From: an uncultured Pseudomonadota bacterium
GTDB lineage: Bacteria; Pseudomonadota; Alphaproteobacteria; Rs-D84
Reading direction: 5' to 3'
Assembly: GCA_949290785.1 (NCBI GenBank)
Contig: CASETE010000004.1
Location: 12,794-76,793, forward strand
DNA length: 64,000 nt
Shown: piece after piece, positions 322 to 63,314 of the stretch
Position numbering within the stretch: position 1 is the first letter of the stretch
How the letters are laid out: the number at the start of each line of letters is the position of its first letter
The notes under the pieces: model-generated
Database searches by the model: none
What the model saw: the letters and a program-made list of their open reading frames with translations, nothing else
Told to the model about the DNA's origin: nothing
Position numbers and translations under genes: made by a program

Positions 322-2814
322 TTACATAACGATATCTTCACATACAGGCTCCGACACTTCTGTCGTACATTCTGTATTCCGGCTGTTATGGAACCAACTG
401 CTACTACCTGTTGTCTTACAATTTTCTTTTGATATCGTTGTACATATATGGCAAGTTCTTGTATCACGACTAAATATCGCAGTTACTTCTTTAGTCATTC
501 CACCACCACTTAAACTTGAGCCTCCCAAATATCCGCTATTAGAAAACTTTACACCACCCGATTTTACGACTCCTGTTCCGCCTTTTGATAAATCTTCAAT
601 TGACAAACCGGCCCCAACATCATAACTGATAGAATAAGGTGGAGTTAGTGGCGTTGTCGCATCAGTACTTATACCTAAATCACTGCCACCATTTTCTGCA
701 ATCTTTTGACACATATACTGCGCCAAATCCACAGAAGCGTTTTTGGTTGCATCGGCAATCGCCGTATTTAACTTTGCGTTATAATTATCCTGAGCCTGAC
801 GCAATGCAGCAACCGCAATTTGCATTTTTACTTGATTCAATAGATTTGGAAAACGTCCCGTTGTTTTTGCACCGGATTTACCTGTTATTTGCGATAAATC
901 ACGACCGTTTACACAGAATTGAATTTCGGGGTCTTCTTCTATCATCGCAATTGTGCGATTGATTGTTCCTGCGATATTATTCAACTCTTCTTCTATGGAC
1001 GATATGATACCATCTGCATTTGCGACACCGGCGTTTTTCTCGCGGATTTTAGCAATGTATTCTTGGACGCCGATTTCACCCGGTCCCAATGTTACATTTC
1101 CTTCGGCGCCCGCATCAACTGTTTTACCGGAAGAATCGCCCATTTTTATGCTGCCGAAAGAAATCATACCAGTTACACGATATATATTGCCATCCTTTTG
1201 AGAACGTAATGAACCGGTTCCCAATGTATCATCGGCAGCAAACTTGTTACAATCAGTTGTGCTGCCACAAACCTCGGTCATCTTTTGATCAACTAAATTC
1301 TGACACTGTTCAATTGCAGCGTTATCAATATTCAAATACAACCCCATTAACATGCCATCCAAATCATCCATAGAGAAATTTGGATTATTTGCCTTGCAGA
1401 CGACCAAAGAATCTAATGGGCAAATGTCATGGATATAGTCATAGTCCATACCAATGCAATTTTCAAAGTTAGGACCGCAACGTGTATCCGCCGTAAAACA
1501 GTCTTTCACTTCTTGGGTACAGGCATCTACACGCATTGCTGCCAACTTATCTTCAACATATCCCCAAATAAGCGGTTCCATTCTTTCACAAGGGTCTATT
1601 TCAACCTTGCAAAAACTGCGCGCCATATCAGGACGCGATAAACAAGCGTCCATTGTTGCAATGCCCTTGCCTGCGATATCGTCTTTACACGCCTGTTGAA
1701 TACAATTAGAAATGTTGGTCAAACAAGACTGACGGAACTTTGATTCTGCCTGACTTTCGGCAAGCCTAATTGTTGGTGCAGCTTCGCGCAGGAAATTTGG
1801 CCAAACCATATCACGAACTGCAACGCAGTTATCTAACACATTTTCACAGATTACTCGTTTTGAATTTAAAACGTCCATAGTAGAGGCAGTTATGTCATAA
1901 GTTTCAACGCTTTGAACTTTTGTTCCGGCGGTACTTACGGTTTCATTATTTTGCATATTTTCTGACGCGACAATAGAAACACAATTCTCCCAATTTTCAC
2001 CGCATGCATCCGTTGTCAACATACACTTTTTAAACTCTACCATACATTGACCCAGGTCATATTTATTTGCTTCTTCAAAACTTTCTTGCAACGCCTGTCT
2101 GACTGCGGATTCCGCGCTTGCCAATTCGGCTTCGGCTTCGGCTTTCTTTTTAGTCAGCGTATTTTTGAACCCCAAACAATCCGAGGTTATTTGTCTGGAA
2201 TACAACTGTTCTAAGAAAGGTAAATCACCAGAACAAGATTCCGGTAACTGAGCGTTACATAAATCTTTGGCAGCTTTGTATAATGCGTTACCTGTTTTAT
2301 TTGCCAAACTGGTTATGTCGCTTTCTTCCGTTTCTTCATACGAGTTATCTTCAAACAAGGCTAATAAACTTGCACGTTCTTGTGATTTTTTTTCTTCCGC
2401 CGTTATTTCCGTATCGGAAATTATATTTCCATCTGCGTCATATTTGCGCTGACCCGTAAAAACAATATCTGCATTTGCGCCGGCTTTTACACGTTCAACT
2501 TCCACCGTCTTAATACGATTCGCCTCGTTTAACATATCTTGGATATCTGCGAAATCTTTTTCGTACTGAATGCTGTCGTCACTGCAAGTACAACTGCCAC
2601 CATTAGAATTATCTGTTATACAAAACTGATCCATACAACCAAAATAAGCATTATAACAGTCTTGATCATACAAACCGGTTGTTTCTGTACGAGTACGGAC
2701 GGTTGTTCCTTGTTGAATTGCAGATTGTTTCTTGGCAGTCGTTGCCGCATAAACTGCGCCAATAAACATACACATTACACATGATACAGGAACAATCGTT
2801 TTTCTTAGTTTCAT
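322..2814 (-). CDS. Large secreted cysteine-rich protein, family member 1 (about 830 aa), function unknown
   Basis: Long ORF 322..2850. The internal ATG at 2814 (MKLRKTIVPVSCVMCMFIGAVYA, signal peptide) is preceded by a GGGGGA RBS. It has dozens of Cys and the motifs DCYNAYFGCMDQFCITDNSNGGSCTCSD and NKYDLGQCMVEFKKCMLTTDACGENWENC, both shared with paralogs in this window. Confidence 0.85.
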   Translation of the reverse strand: MKLRKTIVPVSCVMCMFIGAVYAATTAKKQSAIQQGTTVRTRTETTGLYDQDCYNAYFGCMDQFCITDNSNGGSCTCSDDSIQYEKDFADIQDMLNEANRIKTVEVERVKAGANADIVFTGQRKYDADGNIISDTEITAEEKKSQERASLLALFEDNSYEETEESDITSLANKTGNALYKAAKDLCNAQLPESCSGDLPFLEQLYSRQITSDCLGFKNTLTKKKAEAEAELASAESAVRQALQESFEEANKYDLGQCMVEFKKCMLTTDACGENWENCVSIVASENMQNNETVSTAGTKVQSVETYDITASTMDVLNSKRVICENVLDNCVAVRDMVWPNFLREAAPTIRLAESQAESKFRQSCLTNISNCIQQACKDDIAGKGIATMDACLSRPDMARSFCKVEIDPCERMEPLIWGYVEDKLAAMRVDACTQEVKDCFTADTRCGPNFENCIGMDYDYIHDICPLDSLVVCKANNPNFSMDDLDGMLMGLYLNIDNAAIEQCQNLVDQKMTEVCGSTTDCNKFAADDTLGTGSLRSQKDGNIYRVTGMISFGSIKMGDSSGKTVDAGAEGNVTLGPGEIGVQEYIAKIREKNAGVANADGIISSIEEELNNIAGTINRTIAMIEEDPEIQFCVNGRDLSQITGKSGAKTTGRFPNLLNQVKMQIAVAALRQAQDNYNAKLNTAIADATKNASVDLAQYMCQKIAENGGSDLGISTDATTPLTPPYSISYDVGAGLSIEDLSKGGTGVVKSGGVKFSNSGYLGGSSLSGGGMTKEVTAIFSRDTRTCHICTTISKENCKTTGSSSWFHNSRNTECTTEVSEPVCEDIVM

Positions 2815-11986: not shown

Positions 11987-14900
11987 TTAGAAGTTATATC
12001 TAAACTTCAACATACCTGTATGAGAAGTGTAATCTTCATGCAAGTCTAAGTCATAGTTCAAGGATACTTCTACACCCTTATAAATACCTACCAAACCGAT
12101 ACCGAATTCACCGCCCAAGCGAGACAAGCGATCTGCATCGATTACATAAGATAGATTACCTGGTGCAGTAATTGTTGCGACTGCAGAATCAGACAAGAAG
12201 TCATATGTAGCTGCTGCACGCAATTCTGGGCGTAAACTTAATTCAGAATCTGTTTCGATTTCGAACGCATACTTAACGCCTGCTACACCTGTCAGATAGT
12301 CTGTATCCAACGCGTCAACTTCGCCCAACCAGCTCTGATATGCATCCTGGCTGATGTGCAGGTAACGCATACCAACTTCTGGTGTGAAACCGGATGCAAA
12401 GTCATAACCCGTCATGATTTGACCACCGAACGAATCGACATCATATTCTGTCTTGCGTTTGAATCCATATGGATCCGCAGATTCGTCATAGTTAGCCATT
12501 GTATAATTCAATGCTGCATTGACATACCATTCGTTTGGCTTGTACTGGCCATACAGGAACAAGCTGTTCGATTCGATACCTGTATCACGCGAATTCGAAT
12601 CGACATCAGTGTCATTGTATGCATAACCGATACCCAGAGTATATTTACCGTCAATCAGTGTATCTGCACCGACAGAAATACCCCATGTATCGCCGCTGAA
12701 CTTGCCATTATATTTCGAATGGTTGTACAGACCCTGGACCCACAGGCCATAATCCGCAGATGTTAAATCACCACCACTGCGGCCGACCGATGCACCGGAC
12801 ATACGACCCGCAGCCAGCGACATCACCTGGTTCTGGACAGACGATGCGACCGATTGTGCGACCGGCTTGTCATCTGGGTTCAGTTTTGCCAGTTCTTTTT
12901 CAGCATTGCCAGTCTTGCCCGCGACCAGGTCTTGTTGCGCCATCAGCGAAATCGTATTCAACACATCGTCATTTGTGTTGGCCATGATGCTGACCGCGTT
13001 TGCCGCACCCATCGACAGGTTTGTACCCTGGGCAATTTCTTCCACTGATTTGGTTGCAACAGTGATTTCACCTGTTTCACCGAATGTGGCGTCATAGATT
13101 GCATTGTTATACACAATCTTATCTTCTGGTACTGTCACACCAAAGTTATATGTACCCACAGATCCAAACATCAGGTTCAACAGTCCGTTATCGCCAACGG
13201 TGATATTGCCTGTTTCGACACGACCATACGAACCCTGGTTCAAGATTTGTGCAGTCAGTGTACCTTCCAGTGTAACCTCAGACTGTTTTACGGTTGTTGT
13301 ACCGATATTCAGTGTTGCACCTTCTGCAATATTCAAAGAACCAGTACCTGAGATACCACTGCCGATAATAGTTGTACCAGAAGCGACATCAATTATACCG
13401 TCGTTATGTATATCGTTTGCAACGCCTGCAGCAGTATTACCAGCGAAAACGTTGTTTCCAGCGAATTCCATTTTTGCAACGGATTCATTATAGATAGCAC
13501 CGCCTGAAACACCTGCTGTATTTCCTATAAATACTGCATCTGCAATACTTGTTTTCTCAAAAGTATTATAAATAGCACCACCATAAGTACCCGCTGCATT
13601 GCCAGCGAATTCTACCCTCTTCAGATTCAGTTCCGCTTTTGTATTTGGTTTCAAATAATCTGTAGAAGTATCATATCCTTCTGGGGCACTTCCTTTATCA
13701 TTAATTGTTTTATCTGTTGATGCACTATACCAATCCGCGCGAGTTGAAATGGCTCCACCAGTTACAGTAGAACTATTATTTTTAAACAACGCATTCTCAA
13801 CATCTGTTTTAGAAGCGCTACCAACAAACAAAGCACCACCACCATCTATACTAGTCCGCAAATTATGGTTATCATAACCGTCATCTACAAGTGCACCTGT
13901 AACTTTATTACCGTCAAATATGCTTTGTGAAATATTTATTTCCATATTAGCATAGTTTGCGATGGCACCAGCCCCATAAACCGCCTCATTTCCAGAGAAT
14001 AACGTTCCAGAAATAACCGCAGCACCCTTACCAGTACCATTATCATTATAACCAGAATATAGTGCACCGCCCACAAACTCCGTACTATTATTAACAAAAG
14101 AGGAATCAGTGATACTCATTTGTCCCTTAGAACCGATAGCACCGCCATATCCATAACCTGTACTTTTATTTTCTACAAATGACGCATTTTTAACTGTTAA
14201 ATTCGCATCAACATCGTTGACAATAGCACCGCCATCTAAAACGGCCGTATTATCACTAAATAATCCGCTAACTGTCAGGTCACCTGTATTATAAATAGCA
14301 CCACCATATGCTTTACCAGATTCTGATATCGCTTTATTGGCAATGAAATCACCATTTACTGTCAACGTACCTGCATTATAAATGGCACCACCCAACGCAT
14401 TGGTTGAATTTGTAGAAACATAATTATTTGTAAAATTACCATTAATATTGGCAACTACACTATATTCACCATCTTCTTTAATGGAAATCGCGCCACCAGT
14501 GGAATCTTTTTTATTATCATTTGTACCTGTTGTCGCAACAGCAAAGTTTCCATCAAAATTACCGACAATTTCATCAATTTGTACACCGTACTTATCTACA
14601 CCTTCACGGTCATTTGCACCAGCTTTGATATACAATGCACCACCGTTTGCATAACCGTCACCATGTGCGCTATTACCTGTGAAATTACCTTCAATACGTC
14701 CGATTGTAACAGGTCCTTCACCAAAAGCACCTTGGATATGCATTGCACCACCACCAGCAGAAATTTGATCATCACTTGTGTATGATGTTTCACCTTCACC
14801 AGCATACTTTGCTATTGCCGAGTTTCCTGTGAAATCGCCTGTGATAGAACCGATGTTGGTACCACCATATAAAGCAAAAGCACCACCATTAACGGTTGCT

Positions 14901-15283
14901 TTACCTTTATTTACTGTATCTGATGTATTTACAACAGAGTTATTTTCAAAGGTTCCTGTAATTGCACCAATACTACCATTATTATATAAAACAGAGCCTT
15001 GACCATAAATTTCGCCGCTACTGGATTCAGTTTTAATCAAATTAACTGTATTACCAGAAACTGTACCTGCATTAATTGCATCAATTTCTTTTCCCGATTC
15101 AACTTTTAATACGCCACCATTACGAGATGTATCGTCATCAACATCATATGTATTTTCGATCCAACTTTCTACATCTGTTGGATTACTATACTGAGCATTT
15201 TCAGCCATAGCAGGCATAATTGCCAGTGCTGGCAACACAGAGCAGATTTTTAATAAATCAGCCAAATGTTTGTATGTCGACAT
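11987..15283 (-). CDS. Autotransporter adhesin-like protein with Pmp-type repeats (tandem paralog)
   Basis: 1098 aa with the same GGAI/FxxN repeat architecture. The C-terminal beta domain is collinear with 8830..11874 and ends MLKFRYNF. Confidence 0.85.
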   Translation of the reverse strand: MSTYKHLADLLKICSVLPALAIMPAMAENAQYSNPTDVESWIENTYDVDDDTSRNGGVLKVESGKEIDAINAGTVSGNTVNLIKTESSSGEIYGQGSVLYNNGSIGAITGTFENNSVVNTSDTVNKGKATVNGGAFALYGGTNIGSITGDFTGNSAIAKYAGEGETSYTSDDQISAGGGAMHIQGAFGEGPVTIGRIEGNFTGNSAHGDGYANGGALYIKAGANDREGVDKYGVQIDEIVGNFDGNFAVATTGTNDNKKDSTGGAISIKEDGEYSVVANINGNFTNNYVSTNSTNALGGAIYNAGTLTVNGDFIANKAISESGKAYGGAIYNTGDLTVSGLFSDNTAVLDGGAIVNDVDANLTVKNASFVENKSTGYGYGGAIGSKGQMSITDSSFVNNSTEFVGGALYSGYNDNGTGKGAAVISGTLFSGNEAVYGAGAIANYANMEINISQSIFDGNKVTGALVDDGYDNHNLRTSIDGGGALFVGSASKTDVENALFKNNSSTVTGGAISTRADWYSASTDKTINDKGSAPEGYDTSTDYLKPNTKAELNLKRVEFAGNAAGTYGGAIYNTFEKTSIADAVFIGNTAGVSGGAIYNESVAKMEFAGNNVFAGNTAAGVANDIHNDGIIDVASGTTIIGSGISGTGSLNIAEGATLNIGTTTVKQSEVTLEGTLTAQILNQGSYGRVETGNITVGDNGLLNLMFGSVGTYNFGVTVPEDKIVYNNAIYDATFGETGEITVATKSVEEIAQGTNLSMGAANAVSIMANTNDDVLNTISLMAQQDLVAGKTGNAEKELAKLNPDDKPVAQSVASSVQNQVMSLAAGRMSGASVGRSGGDLTSADYGLWVQGLYNHSKYNGKFSGDTWGISVGADTLIDGKYTLGIGYAYNDTDVDSNSRDTGIESNSLFLYGQYKPNEWYVNAALNYTMANYDESADPYGFKRKTEYDVDSFGGQIMTGYDFASGFTPEVGMRYLHISQDAYQSWLGEVDALDTDYLTGVAGVKYAFEIETDSELSLRPELRAAATYDFLSDSAVATITAPGNLSYVIDADRLSRLGGEFGIGLVGIYKGVEVSLNYDLDLHEDYTSHTGMLKFRYNF

Positions 15284-15383
15284 ACTTTCTCCTTTATTAA
15301 ATTTTATTTTGGACCTTCTGTATAAAAAAGCCTATCATAACTAGGACTATCGTCAACAAAAATATTTTTGATAATAATCCTAT

Positions 15384-15620
15384 AAAAAACCGCCAAGGAA
15401 ATGGCGGTCGGGGAGTTAAGAAAATCACCCAAAAGTATGACCCCGCCAGTTTTCGGGATACCCTATTTTATAACTGACGGCTCCCCGACCTGATACGGGG
15501 TTCAGAGACAATAAATGGCGCAAATCCGCGCCGTGTATCATCCCTACATTTCAGCATAAAAAACTTATGCTGCTTTTGGGTTGGCTTTCTTACGGCCCGA
15601 AGCCACATCCCTGTGGATTC
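15384..15620 (-). ncRNA. Candidate structured RNA / attenuator leader, copy A (unknown class)
   Basis: It is bounded by a near-consensus promoter (15627-15654) and a terminator (ACCGCCA-loop-TGGCGGT plus T6 at 15384-15408). It contains a 10-bp long-range helix (15406-15415 with 15481-15490). That helix is mutually exclusive with hairpin 15483-15500 and overlaps the terminator stem by 3 nt. A paralog lies at 61028-61237. Confidence 0.5.
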
Positions 15621-15626
15621 AAAAAA

Positions 15627-15654
15627 ATTATACGAAAAGCGCATAAAAAGACAA
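15627..15654 (-). promoter_or_regulatory. Sigma70-type promoter TTGTCT-16-TATAAT driving element A
   Basis: The minus strand reads TTGTCTTTTTATGCGCTTTTCGTATAAT. Confidence 0.55.
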
Positions 15655-15667
15655 GAAAATATTTTGA

Positions 15668-15695
15668 TTGCAAATTAGCTAAAATAATATATAAT
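15668..15695 (+). promoter_or_regulatory. Sigma70-type promoter TTGCAA-16-TATAAT for tRNA-Gln
   Basis: The -10 element ends 11 nt before the mature tRNA 5' end. It is divergent from the element A promoter. Confidence 0.5.
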
Positions 15696-15706
15696 AATGC
15701 GCGCAT

Positions 15707-15780
15707 TGGGGCATAGTTTAATGGTAGAACAGCAGACTCTGACTCTGTATATCGCGGTTCGAGTCCGTGTGCCCCAACCA
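15707..15780 (+). tRNA. tRNA-Gln (anticodon CTG)
   Basis: Cloverleaf folded by hand. Acceptor stem TGGGGCA/TGCCCCA (U1-A72, as in bacterial tRNA-Gln), anticodon stem GCAGA/TCTGT with loop CTCTGAC, T-arm GCGGTTCGAGTCCGT, and an encoded CCA. Confidence 0.9.
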
Positions 15781-15787
15781 AGCATTT

Positions 15788-15810
15788 GACCGCCTTTTTG
15801 GCGGTTTAAT
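15788..15810 (+). terminator. Hairpin terminator after tRNA-Gln
   Basis: accgcc-ttttt-ggcggt followed by TTTAATTATTT. Confidence 0.5.
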
Positions 15811-42655: not shown

Positions 42656-43033
42656 TTATTTACCCTTTACAGCGGACCCCGCAACAACAACGCGCTTTCC
42701 CTTACGAGTACGAGCATTTGTTTGCGTACGTTGACCGCGAACCGGCAAACGATTACGATGACGAATACCGCGATAAGTTTTCAAATCTTGCAAACGTTTA
42801 ATATTCATTGCAACTTCACGGCGAACATCGCCTTCTACTTTAAAGTTTTCTTCTATATACTTAGAAATTTTAACAACATCCTCGTCAGTCAAGTCTTTCG
42901 CACGCAATCCATCTTTTAATTTCAAAGCCTTGCAAATTTGCGCGGACTTTGCCGGTCCGATACCATGGATGTACTGCAACGCGATTTCAATGCGCTTTTC
43001 CGTAGGAATGTTAACACCTGCTATACGTGCCAT
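42656..43033 (-). CDS. rpsM: 30S ribosomal protein S13
   Basis: [26 protein letters not shown]. Confidence 0.95.
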
Positions 43034-43134
43034 TTTTCATTTTCCTTTTTATTTATTTCAGTGTACTAAATGCACCCTGATATTTTCTCTGTAAAACCGT
43101 TTTCAGATTTACAAGAGTTTTTATTTGTCGCCTT

Positions 43135-47272: not shown

Positions 47273-47345
47273 CTTTTACTCCTTCTAAGCGACGATATTT
47301 TCGTCCTTGTTTCCAGCTGCATTGTCCACAACTGGCGTTTAAAAT

Positions 47346-47648
47346 TTACCAACTAGATTTACGTACGCCCGGCAATTTACCTTCAGAAGCCATTGTACGA
47401 ACCTGTTGACGACACAAACCGAACAAACGTGAAAAACCGCGTGCACGACCAGTCACTGAACAACGATTGCGCAACCGTGTTGGATTTGCGTTACGTGGCA
47501 GTTTTGCAGCCTTCAACATTGCTTCCTGACGTTCTTCTGGTTTAGCGTTTCTAGACATTTTTGCTTTATTTGCTTCGCGCTTTTTTGCATATTGCGCGAC
47601 CAACTTTTCGCGTTTTTTCTGTTTATTTATTAATGCTAACTTTGCCAT
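47346..47648 (-). CDS. rpsN: 30S ribosomal protein S14 (long form)
   Basis: MAKLALINKQKKREKLVAQYAKKR...NRCSVTGRARGFSRLFGLCRQQVR...KSSW. Confidence 0.95.
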   Translation of the reverse strand: MAKLALINKQKKREKLVAQYAKKREANKAKMSRNAKPEERQEAMLKAAKLPRNANPTRLRNRCSVTGRARGFSRLFGLCRQQVRTMASEGKLPGVRKSSW

Positions 47649-60457: not shown

Positions 60458-60991
60458 CTAAAAAAGCGTTCTGAAAGACAGCCTAAAACCATTCGTATCT
60501 GCTGATAAATTTACTTTTGTATCATAAGAATCAACAACGCCCCACGTCACTATTGCGCTTACCGCGGCACCAGCCAGAACGTCATGCCAATAATGCGCCC
60601 TGACATGCACTCTTGTCCAACCCGTCAATACAGCCATAGCATAAGGAACAACGGCAGACCGCCAACCGTACCTTTTATGAACGAACATCGCACTAGAGAA
60701 AGCGCCCGCAGAATGCCCACTGGGGAAAGATAAATCATCACTACCATTTGGTCTTTCTTCACGGATTGTTCTTTTAAGAATTTCTGTAACTCCTTGTGAC
60801 AAGACGACAGATTCTGCAAATTGTACTGTACCAATAAAATCTTTTGCTTGTACCGTCATCCCCAGCGCATATCCAGCCCCCATTGTCATCAATAAGTCCC
60901 CTAATTTATTTGGGTCTGTAAAAGGTCCAGCAACAGCAAATTTTGAACCAAACAATACCGCAATAAACGATATACAAACTTTTTTATTCAT
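60458..60991 (-). CDS. PAP2-family lipid phosphatase (177 aa), secreted/periplasmic
   Basis: Start moved to MNKKVCISFIAVLFGSKFAVAG (ATG 60991). It has the acid-phosphatase motifs KRTIREERPNG, PSGHSAGAF and RVHVRAHYWHDVLAGA. The upstream part of ORF 60458..61216 overlaps RNA element B and is not considered coding. Confidence 0.8.
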   Translation of the reverse strand: MNKKVCISFIAVLFGSKFAVAGPFTDPNKLGDLLMTMGAGYALGMTVQAKDFIGTVQFAESVVLSQGVTEILKRTIREERPNGSDDLSFPSGHSAGAFSSAMFVHKRYGWRSAVVPYAMAVLTGWTRVHVRAHYWHDVLAGAAVSAIVTWGVVDSYDTKVNLSADTNGFRLSFRTLF

Positions 60992-61027
60992 TCTGTTTTT
61001 CCCTTTTTCTGCCAAAAAATGCAGCAA

Positions 61028-61237
61028 GAAAAACCACCAAATAAATTGGTGGTCGGGAGTTGAACAGTCAAATATACGATGACCTTGTTGCCTTCGGAAT
61101 AAGTACCTATTGTATAGCAACAACATCCCGACCAAAATCGGGACATAAGTCAGTTCGTTTAGTATATTCGGGTGTTCAAGCCCTTCCTTACTAACCATTG
61201 TCTTTATAAAGAACATCTAAACCCACATCTAGATGCA
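61028..61237 (-). ncRNA. Candidate structured RNA / attenuator leader, copy B (paralog of 15384..15620)
   Basis: Terminator ACCACCA-loop-TGGTGGT plus T5 at 61028-61053. The long-range helix is 61051-61058 with 61126-61133, and the competing hairpin is 61127-61142. Blocks shared with copy A are GAUGUGG, GUAAG.AAG, GGUCAU and U.AACUCCC.GACC. The 5' end is uncertain (weak TAGACA-17-ATTATA promoter near 61244-61272). Confidence 0.45.
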
Positions 61238-61277
61238 CTTTTATATAATAGCAAGTCAGTAAACTTTGTCTATAAAA

Positions 61278-63237: not shown

Positions 63238-63314
<77 letters not shown>

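What the first reader, a model, noticed from the sequence alone, without database searches (positions are those of the whole stretch)
15384..15654. Stand-alone promoter-to-terminator unit encoding a ~237-nt structured RNA upstream of an autotransporter gene (element A)
On the minus strand a TTGTCT-16-TATAAT promoter is followed by an RNA that ends in a canonical terminator (ACCGCCA/UGGCGGU plus U6), about 100 nt before the start of 11987..15283.

Within it three structures are mutually exclusive:
- Hairpin CCCCG-UAUCAGGU-CGGGG.
- A 10-bp long-range helix GGUCGGGGAG...(65 nt)...CUCCCCGACC, which reuses the CGGGG strand.
- The terminator, whose 5' strand overlaps the helix by 3 nt.

This is the anti-antiterminator / antiterminator / terminator logic of riboswitches and attenuators. 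I could not match the sequence to TPP, c-di-GMP, ZTP, fluoride, T-box or other classes I can recall. It may equally be an independent sRNA.
Basis: seen in the sequence. Interest (0 to 1): 0.62.

Follow-up and report, generated by a model that had tools for sequence, protein, structure and literature searches.

The report
Pseudoknotted terminator-switch leader RNA family
A 237-base folded RNA with its own promoter and built-in terminator sits before a surface-adhesin gene; it belongs to a large, uncatalogued family of leaders that probably gates surface-protein genes in tiny-genome gut bacteria, by an unknown trigger.

Summary
The promoter, the three competing helices and the terminator all lie at the stated coordinates on the minus strand.

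It is not a one-off:
- My covariance model finds 8 strong copies in this ~1 Mb genome, including a second one in this window.
- It finds copies in 187 of 200 genomes of the order and in about 10% of other sampled Alphaproteobacteria.
- In 127 of 133 loci a same-strand gene with a ribosome-binding site starts a median 21 nt after the U-run. These are mostly exported or envelope proteins.

Covariation supports:
- a three-way junction (P1/P2/P3);
- four 5' hairpins;
- the upstream decoy hairpin (b:c);
- two hypervariable long-range pseudoknot helices, where the cognate partner ranks first in 78 of 86 loci.

The strands with more than one possible partner (a, b, c, d, Pa, terminator) are the sequence-conserved ones, which fits a two-state switch.

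The only Rfam match is sRNA-Xcc1, below threshold (42.5 vs 53 bits). It shares the junction core.

My best reading is a cis-acting transcription-attenuator leader whose trigger is unknown. I tested c4/IsrK-type antisense targeting, a MITE and a NusG-paralog mechanism. None was supported.

The parts
15649..15654 (-). -35 box TTGTCT
   Evidence: A TTG at this spacing is conserved in the 130-sequence family alignment.
15627..15632 (-). -10 box TATAAT. Predicted transcription start is G15620.
   Evidence: TAtAaT is conserved 7-8 nt upstream of the GAAUCC start of Pa across the family.
15599..15620 (-). Pa hairpin GAAUCCACA-GGGA-UGUGGCUUC with a GNRA-type loop. Its loop and 3' strand are complementary to the terminator loop and 5' strand.
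   Evidence: All 8 stem pairs show compensatory changes and 92% of cells are paired. Pa versus terminator, cognate against non-cognate, is -14.4 vs -12.1 kcal/mol, p = 1e-9. Loop-to-loop complementarity has p = 4e-4.
15596..15600 (-). Strand 'a' (UCGGG), a c-like G-rich strand that can pair with d (CCCGA). It is also the 5' side of hairpin Pb.
   Evidence: a:d is paired in 96.5% of 86 sequences, with GC-to-AU compensation in 12. It pairs with d in the minimum-free-energy fold of this copy.
15586..15592 (-). PK1 5' strand (Pb loop, UAAGAAA), which pairs with 15423-15417.
   Evidence: Hypervariable and locus-specific. The cognate partner ranks first in 78 of 86 loci.
15573..15580 (-). PK2 5' strand (linker, CCCAAAAG), which pairs with the P3 loop at 15435-15428.
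15503..15573 (-). Variable central hairpins, the Pc/Pd equivalents. GCAGCAU..AUGCUG is at 15573-15552. The long hairpin at 15546-15503 has GGCGCG/UGCGCC at its tip (15532-15517).
   Evidence: fold. Family helices Pc and Pd covary.
15496..15500 (-). Strand b (CCCCG), a weakened upstream copy of d that pairs with c to give the decoy hairpin.
   Evidence: b:c is 89.8% paired, with 15 CG-to-UA compensations. Across the class, cognate against non-cognate is -14.35 vs -11.0 kcal/mol, p = 9e-7.
15481..15490 (-). Strand c (GGUCGGGGAG), the 5' strand of P1. It pairs with b or with d.
15443..15480 (-). P2 (CCGUCAGU/ACUGGCGG) with the conserved internal loop UAUAAAAUA / GAAA and tip hairpin P2a (GGG-UAU-CCC).
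   Evidence: All 8 P2 pairs and all 3 P2a pairs show compensatory changes. The loop aligns with the AUACAA / GAA of Rfam sRNA-Xcc1.
15423..15442 (-). P3 hairpin (GGUCA...UGAUU). Its loop at 15435-15428 is the PK2 3' strand.
15417..15423 (-). J3/1 (UUUCUUA), the PK1 3' strand.
15406..15415 (-). Strand d (CUCCCCGACC), the 3' strand of P1. Its last 3 nt are shared with the terminator.
15384..15408 (-). Intrinsic terminator ACCGCCA-UUUCCU-UGGCGGU plus U6.
   Evidence: The hairpin is -13.3 kcal/mol. The family terminator helix is 95% paired and all 5 pairs covary.
11987..15283 (-). Downstream gene: a 1098-aa autotransporter with a Pmp repeat. This is the presumed regulated gene.
   Evidence: Pfam Autotransporter 1.5e-32 and Chlam_PMP 1.4e-9. 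No minus-strand promoter-like site lies in the 100-nt spacer.

Best explanation
The element is the 5' leader of the autotransporter gene. It is a cis-acting, conditional transcription attenuator, and a member of a large, unrecorded family of ~200-260-nt pseudoknotted leader RNAs.

Shown:
- Transcription is predicted to start at a conserved sigma-70 promoter.
- The RNA contains a 5' domain (Pa, Pb, Pc, Pd) and a 3' three-way junction (P1 = c:d, P2, P3).
- Two covarying long-range helices clamp the two domains together: Pb loop with J3/1, and linker with P3 loop.
- The RNA ends in an intrinsic terminator.
- The next gene normally follows too closely to have its own promoter.

Inferred:
- Four short strands form a strand-exchange switch. 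a and c are G-rich; b and d are C-rich.
- In the 'terminate' fold, Pa and Pb are local hairpins, c pairs with d to close the junction, and the terminator forms. This yields the ~237-nt RNA.
- In the 'read-through' fold, b holds c. Strand a, brought next to d by PK1, takes d. The pairing then extends from the Pa loop and 3' strand over the terminator's 5' strand and loop before the terminator's 3' strand has been made, so polymerase runs into the gene.

Unknown:
- What biases the choice. The most likely site for a small molecule or protein is the conserved unpaired core of the junction, the P2 internal loop UAUA(C/A)AAYA / GAAA. That core is shared with sRNA-Xcc1.
For: Family and distribution:
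- 8 copies of 74-115 bits in this genome.
- 187 of 200 genomes of the order have a match.
- 40 of about 398 other Alphaproteobacteria genomes have a match.
- The exact-motif pattern found 0 hits for its reversed control.

Gene linkage:
- 127 of 133 loci have a same-strand ORF with a ribosome-binding site, a median 21 nt after the U-run.
- In this genome the downstream genes are an autotransporter, two PAP2 genes, an outer-membrane beta-barrel, a bPH_2 membrane protein, a Cys-rich secreted protein and a lipoprotein.

Structure:
- 3' domain: 95.7% paired, 20 of 29 pairs compensatory, 0 of 500 shuffles as good, 35-46% paired in slid controls.
- 5' helices plus b:c, on a sequence-only alignment: 87% paired against 33-48% slid.
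- b:c and c:d co-vary across the class, p = 9e-7 and 6e-7.
- a:d is 96.5% paired.
- PK1/PK2: -16.05 vs -5.01 kcal/mol, p = 6e-54.
- 5' segment against d plus terminator: -25.5 vs -22.6 kcal/mol, p = 8e-12.

Other support:
- Helices with one partner are hypervariable, while strands with alternative partners are sequence-conserved class-wide.
- For this copy, the closed fold with b:c is -100 to -103 kcal/mol, against -86 to -89 for Pa + junction + terminator.
- Metatranscriptome contigs cover the RNA.
Against: - There is no experimental 5' or 3' end and no read-through measurement. The RNA-seq data are unstranded contigs from related strains.
- No ligand or protein is identified.
- The evidence for the Pa-to-terminator pairing is weaker. 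It shows a 2-3 kcal/mol cognate advantage, and only 46 of 85 loci have at least 3 nt of loop complementarity.
- This copy has a 100-nt spacer, so an unrecognised promoter for the autotransporter cannot be ruled out here.
- The terminated RNA could also act in trans. sRNA-Xcc1 and Bartonella Brt1 are described that way in PMC2996969 and PMC5387305.
Confidence: 0.62

Rival explanations
1. It is an independent trans-acting small RNA, one of a set of sibling sRNAs of the sRNA-Xcc1 kind. The terminator is constitutive, the position upstream of genes is incidental, and targets are bound elsewhere by base pairing.
For: - It has its own promoter and a strong terminator.
- The 3' domain resembles sRNA-Xcc1, which its discoverers call a trans-acting sRNA (PMC2996969; reference).
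- Brt1 of Bartonella is proposed to act in trans as well (PMC5387305).
- The full-length RNA folds into a closed, presumably stable form.
Against: - 127 of 133 loci have a same-strand ORF with a ribosome-binding site a median 21 nt after the U-run, which leaves no room for a promoter.
- 8 to more than 16 copies per ~1 Mb genome is far more than known sibling sRNA sets.
- The variable single-stranded loops are used for intramolecular pairing.
- The conserved b/c/d competition has no role in a simple sRNA.
Confidence: 0.13
2. It is a phage-type antisense 'immunity' RNA of the P1 c4, P4 CI or IsrK kind. The junction RNA is processed or terminated out of the leader and pairs with repeats in its own operon transcript, to terminate transcription or to unlock or block translation of the downstream gene.
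For: - The layout of upstream repeat b, internal c and downstream repeat d mirrors seqA-seqB-seqC of P4, as summarised in PMC4825925.
- IsrK shows that a short terminated isoform can act on its own read-through isoform.
- Xcc1-type relatives sit before XRE, antirepressor-like (ORF6N/Bro) and symE genes in mobile elements.
- RCCA-like bases often follow P1, which could fit RNase P processing.
Against: - No Rfam C4 (RF01695) match at E <= 1 on 20 family loci.
- No locus-specific complementarity between the P3 loop/J3-1, the Pb loop/linker or P2 and the 75 nt after the terminator (p = 0.35-0.64). The internal pairing, used as positive control, gives p = 2.5e-53.
- Strand c is buried in P1 of the folded junction.
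- RCCA is present in only about 40% of loci.
Confidence: 0.1
3. It is a miniature mobile repeat (a MITE, similar to Correia or RPE elements). Its terminal inverted repeats mimic RNA helices, and it merely happens to carry promoter-like and terminator-like sequences.
For: - It is multi-copy and intergenic.
- The 5' and 3' ends are complementary.
- Strain-level contigs diverge just after the element.
Against: - Copies within one genome are only about 61% identical, and their differences are compensatory.
- 127 of 133 have the same orientation and spacing relative to the next gene.
- The promoter, ribosome-binding-site distance and internal unpaired motifs are conserved across an order and beyond.
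Confidence: 0.02

Closest known systems
sRNA-Xcc1 (Rfam RF02221; Xanthomonas integron cassettes, plasmids, prophages)
   Same: - A three-way junction closed by a G-rich/C-rich P1. The sequences are nearly the same: GGCCGGGGGG vs GGUCGGGGAG.
- P2 carries an AUACAA / GAA internal loop and a tip hairpin.
- P3 is a hairpin and J3/1 is U-rich (alignment).
- It lies upstream of a gene: symE, or an ORF6N-domain gene.
- Class-level relatives bridge the two. One genome has three copies above the Rfam cut-off.
   Different: - This copy scores 42.5 bits against a gathering score of 53.
- The Rfam model covers only the junction.
- This family adds a ~130-nt conserved 5' domain, the decoy strand b, strand a, two pseudoknots and an overlapping intrinsic terminator.
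- It sits before chromosomal envelope and surface genes in 5 to more than 16 copies per genome.
Bartonella regulatory transcripts Brt1-9 with downstream trp (XRE) genes (PMC5387305)
   Same: - Alphaproteobacterial, multi-copy, ~200-nt, highly structured RNAs.
- Each has its own promoter and a 3' terminator immediately upstream of a poorly read-through gene.
- They are proposed to be a riboswitch-like attenuator, and are linked to an autotransporter adhesin (badA).
- Relatives of this family in Rhizobiales and in gut 'Azospirillum' do precede XRE genes.
   Different: - Here the autotransporter itself is the downstream gene, not an XRE regulator.
- Sequence homology to the Brt RNAs could not be tested because no Brt sequence was available.
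- The Brt RNAs were reported as Bartonella-specific.
P4 CI RNA (seqA/seqB/seqC), P1 c4 and Gifsy-1 IsrK (PMC4825925)
   Same: - The leader-encoded structured RNA has an internal sequence complementary to one repeat upstream and one downstream.
- The outcome is premature termination or read-through.
- Short and long isoforms arise from one promoter.
   Different: - There is no detectable homology to Rfam C4.
- Pairing here is intramolecular.
- The RNA's loops do not match the downstream ribosome-binding site.
Transcriptional riboswitches with pseudoknotted multi-helix aptamers and three-part expression platforms
   Same: - The position in a 5' leader.
- Covarying helices around conserved unpaired nucleotides.
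- GNRA loops and pseudoknots.
- Mutually exclusive helices coupled to an intrinsic terminator.
- Many copies per genome forming a regulon.
   Different: - No ligand is known.
- The switching strands are unusually sequence-conserved.
- The downstream genes are surface or secreted proteins, not a metabolic pathway that would point to a ligand.

Membership tests
sRNA-Xcc1 (RF02221) | Score at or above Rfam's gathering threshold (53 bits) | tested here: not met
   42.5 bits, E = 3e-6, at 15398-15490(-). The other copies in this genome score 27-42 bits. 26 copies in G122 all score below 41 bits.
sRNA-Xcc1 (RF02221) | Three-way junction with a G/C-rich P1, a P2 with the AUACAA/GAA internal loop, and a P3 hairpin | tested here: met
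   Full-length alignment to the model over positions 1-87. The helices covary in 101 homologues.
Riboswitch | Conserved structured domain in a 5' leader, supported by covariation | tested here: met
   Linkage to the downstream ORF is shown.
Riboswitch | Expression platform with mutually exclusive helices that include a terminator | tested here: inconclusive
   b:c versus c:d is clear. The terminator overlaps c:d by only 3 nt. The 5':3' pairing that would cover the terminator has weaker support.
Riboswitch | Direct, specific binding of a small-molecule ligand | not testable with these tools
   This needs in-line probing, ITC or transcription assays.
Intrinsic (Rho-independent) terminator | G+C-rich hairpin directly followed by a U-run | tested here: met
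   The hairpin is -13.3 kcal/mol and is followed by U6. Across the family it is 95% paired and all 5 pairs covary.
c4 / P4 CI / IsrK antisense immunity RNAs | Match to the Rfam C4 model | tested here: not met
   No hit at E <= 1 on 20 loci of the family, and none at E <= 10 on the window region.
c4 / P4 CI / IsrK antisense immunity RNAs | RNA loops complementary to a target at or near the downstream gene's ribosome-binding site | tested here: not met
   Cognate against non-cognate is -8.33 vs -8.13 kcal/mol, p = 0.35. The positive control gives p = 2.5e-53.
c4 / P4 CI / IsrK antisense immunity RNAs | Repeats upstream and downstream that are complementary to an internal sequence | tested here: met
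   b and d are both complementary to c, and both track changes in c.
Bartonella Brt | Sequence homology to Brt1-9 | not tested
   No Brt sequence or named Bartonella genome was available. The paper gives no sequence in its text.
Bartonella Brt | XRE (Trp) gene immediately downstream | tested here: not met
   An autotransporter lies downstream here. Relatives elsewhere do precede XRE genes.
MITE / palindromic repeat | Near-identical copies, in either orientation, with terminal inverted repeats and no structural covariation | tested here: not met
   61% mean identity among this genome's copies, compensatory changes, and fixed orientation in 127 of 133 loci.
RfaH/LoaP-type leader (NusG-paralog antitermination) | A specialised NusG paralog encoded in the genome | tested here: not met
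   The genome has a single NusG-N match.

The most novel reading that the evidence does not exclude
The Xcc1-type three-way junction is the sensor of a new, widespread riboswitch class, or the binding site of a dedicated protein. On this reading:
- In Enterousia-like gut Alphaproteobacteria it has been wired, through a four-strand exchange and a double pseudoknot, into the master ON/OFF switch for 1-3% of all genes. These include adhesins, outer-membrane proteins, secreted Cys-rich proteins and envelope-modifying enzymes.
- The same sensor underlies sRNA-Xcc1 in integrons and prophages.
- It probably also underlies the Bartonella Brt/Trp circuit, giving one mechanism for RNAs so far described as unrelated 'sRNAs'.
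Probability: 0.25. Interest if true: 0.88.

Novelty: new variant of a known kind. Interest (0 to 1): 0.72.

Why it matters
- Bacteria of this order have ~1 Mb genomes, few protein regulators and no culture system.
- A single RNA device repeated 5 to more than 16 times per genome in front of adhesin, outer-membrane, secreted and envelope genes would be their main known handle on surface-protein expression.
- The family gives sRNA-Xcc1 a structural and genomic context. That RNA is catalogued but mechanistically unexplained.
- It also offers a testable link to the Brt/Trp adhesin circuit of Bartonella.
- Its anatomy is unusual among attenuators: sequence-frozen switching strands combined with freely covarying clamps. 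It is directly testable with reporter fusions and in-vitro transcription.
- If a ligand exists, this would be an orphan riboswitch class with hundreds of representatives.

Tried and rejected
- **Rfam.** At gathering thresholds nothing matches at the element. In E-value mode only sRNA-Xcc1 matches; ncS54 and CncR1 are noise. There is no C4 or other family on 20 loci.
- **RNA-seq.** Only Logan contigs were available, unstranded and from related strains. They show the region is present in metatranscriptomes but give no transcript ends.
- **Alignment tool.** mafft-qinsi is not installed, so I used L-INS-i alignments and Infernal-fitted alignments.
- **First b:c test.** A test with mononucleotide shuffles was uninformative because any pyrimidine run pairs with G-rich c. 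I replaced it with cognate against non-cognate tests and column counts.
- **First downstream-target test.** It failed its own positive control because the segments were badly placed. I redid it on alignment columns.
- **RCCA tail after P1, as an RNase P-like substrate.** It is present in about 40% of loci only, so I did not pursue it.
- **CsrA-type GGA hairpin reading of Pa.** Rejected because the loop varies between GGGA and GAGA in the manner of a GNRA loop.
- **NusG-paralog antitermination.** Rejected because there is one NusG only.
- **MITE reading.** Rejected; see the rival explanations.
- **Naming G234, G333 and G478 as Bartonella.** This could not be done.

Full report
**Observation**

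On the minus strand the scan finds TTGTCT-16-TATAAT (15654-15627). It also finds a terminator hairpin at 15409-15388 followed by a U-run ending at 15384.
- The predicted start, G15620, is the first base of a hairpin that is conserved in the family. The RNA is therefore 237 nt long.
  - CCCCG (15500-15496) with CGGGG;
  - GGUCGGGGAG (15490-15481) with CUCCCCGACC (15415-15406), 65 nt apart;
  - the terminator, which shares ACC with the latter.
- The sequence folds far better than shuffles: -103 kcal/mol, z = -6.9.
- The autotransporter gene has Pfam Autotransporter and Chlam_PMP matches. It starts 100 nt after the U-run.
- No minus-strand promoter-like site lies in that spacer.

**It is a family, not a single locus**

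BLAST and the Rfam model first showed paralogues in the same ~1 Mb, 40% G+C genome. Earlier notes of this scan place this genome in Candidatus Enterousia, order Rs-D84. The collection scan also returns records titled Candidatus Enterousia.
- A motif pattern for the long-range helix hit 100 of 151 genomes of the family. One genome had up to 32 copies. The reversed control had zero hits.
- I built covariance model R1 from 63 diverse 3' domains. It finds 8 strong copies in this genome (74-115 bits). One is a second copy in this window, at about 61240-61022(-).
- R1 also finds five weaker matches (31-37 bits). They belong to the sister family that earlier agents called 'Brt-like'.
- It matches 40 of about 398 other Alphaproteobacteria genomes, with E-values down to 1e-20.
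- An exact-pattern scan of one genome per species found the same P1 sequence in:
  - Sphingomonas, Rhizobium, Microvirga, Cereibacter, Hyphomicrobium and Micavibrio;
  - gut 'Azospirillum' and Rickettsiales MAGs;
  - a few non-alphaproteobacterial MAGs.

**It is a leader**

In 127 of 133 non-redundant loci a same-strand ORF with a Shine-Dalgarno sequence begins a median 21 nt after the U-run, with an interquartile range of 17-26.5 nt. That leaves no room for a separate promoter.
- At least 71 of these ORFs have signal-peptide-like or transmembrane-like N-termini.
- In this genome the eight downstream genes are:
  - the Pmp-type autotransporter;
  - two PAP2 phosphatases;
  - an outer-membrane beta-barrel protein;
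  - a bPH_2 membrane protein;
  - a Cys-rich secreted protein;
  - a small lipoprotein;
  - a glycosyltransferase fragment with a HAD-like operon.
- The promoter (TTG...TATAAT) is conserved at a fixed distance from the first hairpin.
- The window copy is atypical only in its 100-nt spacer.

**Anatomy and covariation of the 3' domain**

On 101 sequences aligned with Infernal:
- The 3' domain is 95.7% paired, and 20 of 29 pairs show compensatory changes.
- 0 of 500 column shuffles reach that level, and slid controls are 35-46% paired.
- All pairs of P2, P2a and the terminator covary.
- P1 is almost invariant in sequence, apart from one GC-to-AU swap.

**Anatomy and covariation of the 5' domain**

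On a sequence-only MAFFT alignment of 86 full-length RNAs:
- The 5' hairpins are supported: Pa (with a GNRA loop), Pb, Pc and Pd. So is the b:c hairpin.
- Together they are 87% paired, against 33-48% when slid.

**The b strand is a decoy for d**

- b is always a weakened copy of d.
- Across class-level homologues in which c differs, both b and d track c.
- Cognate against non-cognate energies are:
  - b:c, -14.35 vs -11.0 kcal/mol (p = 9e-7);
  - c:d, -18.9 vs -14.8 kcal/mol (p = 6e-7).

- The Pb loop pairs with J3/1 (PK1). In the window this is 15592-15586 with 15423-15417.
- The linker after Pb pairs with the P3 loop (PK2). In the window this is 15580-15573 with 15435-15428.
- These helices are hypervariable but always complementary within a locus:
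  - cognate -16.05 against non-cognate -5.01 kcal/mol;
  - the true partner ranks first of 86 in 78 loci;
  - p = 6e-54.

**The switch**

- A fourth strand, 'a' (UCGGGG, just 5' of PK1), resembles c and can pair with d. It is 96.5% paired, with a GC-to-AU compensation that follows the c/d variant.
- Because PK1 places a next to d, a:d would be a coaxial extension of PK1.
- Beyond a:d, the Pa loop and 3' strand are complementary to the terminator's 5' strand and loop.
  - Cognate pairs are more stable than non-cognate ones: -25.5 vs -22.6 kcal/mol for the whole segments (p = 8e-12), and -14.4 vs -12.1 for Pa against the terminator alone (p = 1e-9).
  - Unusual Pa loops have matching terminator loops, p = 4e-4.
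- For the window copy:
  - the fold with 5':3' closure plus b:c is -100 to -103 kcal/mol;
  - Pa + junction + terminator is -86 to -89 kcal/mol;
  - the terminator can coexist with a P1 shortened by 3 bp.
- A general pattern supports alternative pairing:
  - helices with one partner (P2, P2a, PK1, PK2, Pc, Pd) drift freely;
  - strands with several possible partners (a, b, c, d, Pa, terminator) are frozen in sequence even across the class.
- I therefore read the device as two global folds:
  - 'terminate': Pa, Pb, c:d junction and terminator;
  - 'read-through': b:c, a:d and Pa-3' with terminator-5'.
- The polarity is an inference.

**What it is related to**

- Rfam gives only sRNA-Xcc1: 42.5 bits against a gathering score of 53. 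All family copies tested are also below threshold.
- The resemblance is specific. P1 has the same sequence type, P2 has the same AUACAA/GAA internal loop, and the P3 and J3/1 layout is the same.
- Class-level relatives bridge the gap. One genome has three tandem copies at 55.8-57.9 bits, each in front of a small gene and an antirepressor-like gene.
- Published context for sRNA-Xcc1 is likewise 'upstream of a gene': symE in integron cassettes and an ORF6N gene in APSE phage.
- In free-living Alphaproteobacteria the same junction, with a b strand, precedes XRE-type regulators and ~95-aa proteins.
- That arrangement recalls the Bartonella Brt/Trp pairs, which are ~200-nt RNAs ending in a terminator just before XRE genes and which affect the BadA adhesin (PMC5387305). 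I could not test homology to Brt for lack of sequence.

**Rivals tested**

- **c4 / P4-CI / IsrK-type antisense RNA** (raised by an earlier agent; mechanism summarised in PMC4825925).
  - The b-c-d layout matches seqA-seqB-seqC.
  - No C4 model match exists.
  - The RNA's variable loops show no locus-specific complementarity to the 75 nt after the terminator (p = 0.35-0.64). The internal control gives p = 2.5e-53.
- **Free-standing sRNA.** The tight, oriented coupling to the next ORF argues against this.
- **MITE.** The evidence against is:
  - 61% identity between copies in this genome;
  - compensatory changes;
  - fixed orientation.
- **NusG-paralog (RfaH/LoaP) leader.** The genome has a single NusG.

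**Expression**

- Metatranscriptome assemblies from chicken and other guts contain contigs of related strains that cover the RNA.
  - One 200-nt contig lies wholly inside it, at 15401-15598.
  - Another runs through the terminator into a different downstream sequence.
- These contigs are unstranded and give no ends. They show presence only.

**Verdict**

- The element is a member of a very large, apparently undescribed family of pseudoknotted leader RNAs. Its core is of the sRNA-Xcc1 type.
- It most likely acts in cis as a conditional terminator in front of surface and envelope genes.
- The trigger and the polarity of the switch remain open.

Noticed in passing
window ~61022-61240 (-), with the downstream gene at 60458-60991 (-): This is a second copy of the same RNA family in the window (R1 87.9 bits at C4:73818-73950). 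It has the alternative 'type II' 5' domain (GGUUAGUA...). It lies 33 nt upstream of a 177-aa PAP2 phosphatase, which is followed by a 255-aa outer-membrane-like protein. A paralogous PAP2 gene on contig C13 carries its own copy.
   Followed up: partly
window 15668-15806 (+): tRNA-Gln(CUG) is at 15707-15780. Its promoter-like site (15668-15695) lies back-to-back with the leader's promoter, and its terminator is at 15788-15806. The two divergent promoters share a ~30-bp A+T-rich spacer.
   Followed up: no
own genome C2:63777-63892(-), C11:36256-36855(+) x3, C18:1689-1807(-): The sister 'Brt-like' family (P1 GUUGGAGG/CCUCCAAC, loop GAAUAUAUUGAAUAA) is hit by model R1 at 31-37 bits. It has the same layout of b, c, d and terminator. 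Family-A variants in genome G037 that lack hairpin P2a have a P2 loop, UAUAUAUUGAAG, that nearly matches the sister family's loop. The two therefore look like branches of one superfamily.
   Followed up: partly
L198 (G234:C1:749745-751817): Three tandem 994-bp units lie here. Each carries an sRNA-Xcc1-type RNA above Rfam's cut-off (55.8-57.9 bits), followed by a 104-aa ORF and a 136-147-aa ORF. The N-terminus of the second ORF looks like phage antirepressor or ORF6N-type proteins. There is no b strand and no obvious terminator.
   Followed up: partly
L204, L206, L265, L279 and others (Sphingomonas, Thermomonas, Cereibacter, Hyphomicrobium): In free-living bacteria the junction RNA is followed by a conserved GC-rich hairpin, GCGGGGGCGCACCGC. 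After it comes a ~95-aa protein (MRVPVELDPDVDDEAP...) or an XRE regulator carrying the motif QQIQKYE.G.NRISASRL. This is probably a module of integrative elements.
   Followed up: no
L016 (own genome C2:46299-48409), ORF 719-874 (-): The copy on contig C2 at 47295-47434(-) is followed by only a 51-aa fragment of a family-2 glycosyltransferase (MPKVSVLTPIYNTKPEYLKDCIESI...). A HAD-like gene comes next. This looks like a decayed first gene of the regulated operon.
   Followed up: no
window 15314 and 15402 (strain variation): Related strains in metatranscriptome and metagenome contigs keep the leader but diverge right after it. One contig switches to unrelated sequence at 15314. Others carry a different, 12-bp palindromic terminator from 15402 onward. 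This suggests recombination at the leader-gene boundary.
   Followed up: no
window 43001-43085 (-) and 63241-63314 (-): The Rfam Alpha_RBS leader matches just over its threshold (39 vs 38 bits). A second tRNA lies at 63241-63314. Both are ordinary features and unrelated to the finding.
   Followed up: no
L025, L030, L047, L048 (relatives): In the GGGAAG/CUUCCC sub-branch the terminator's 3' strand contains the Shine-Dalgarno sequence of the next gene (..AAUAGGAGUUUUAUAUG). The same hairpin would therefore block both transcription and translation.
   Followed up: no
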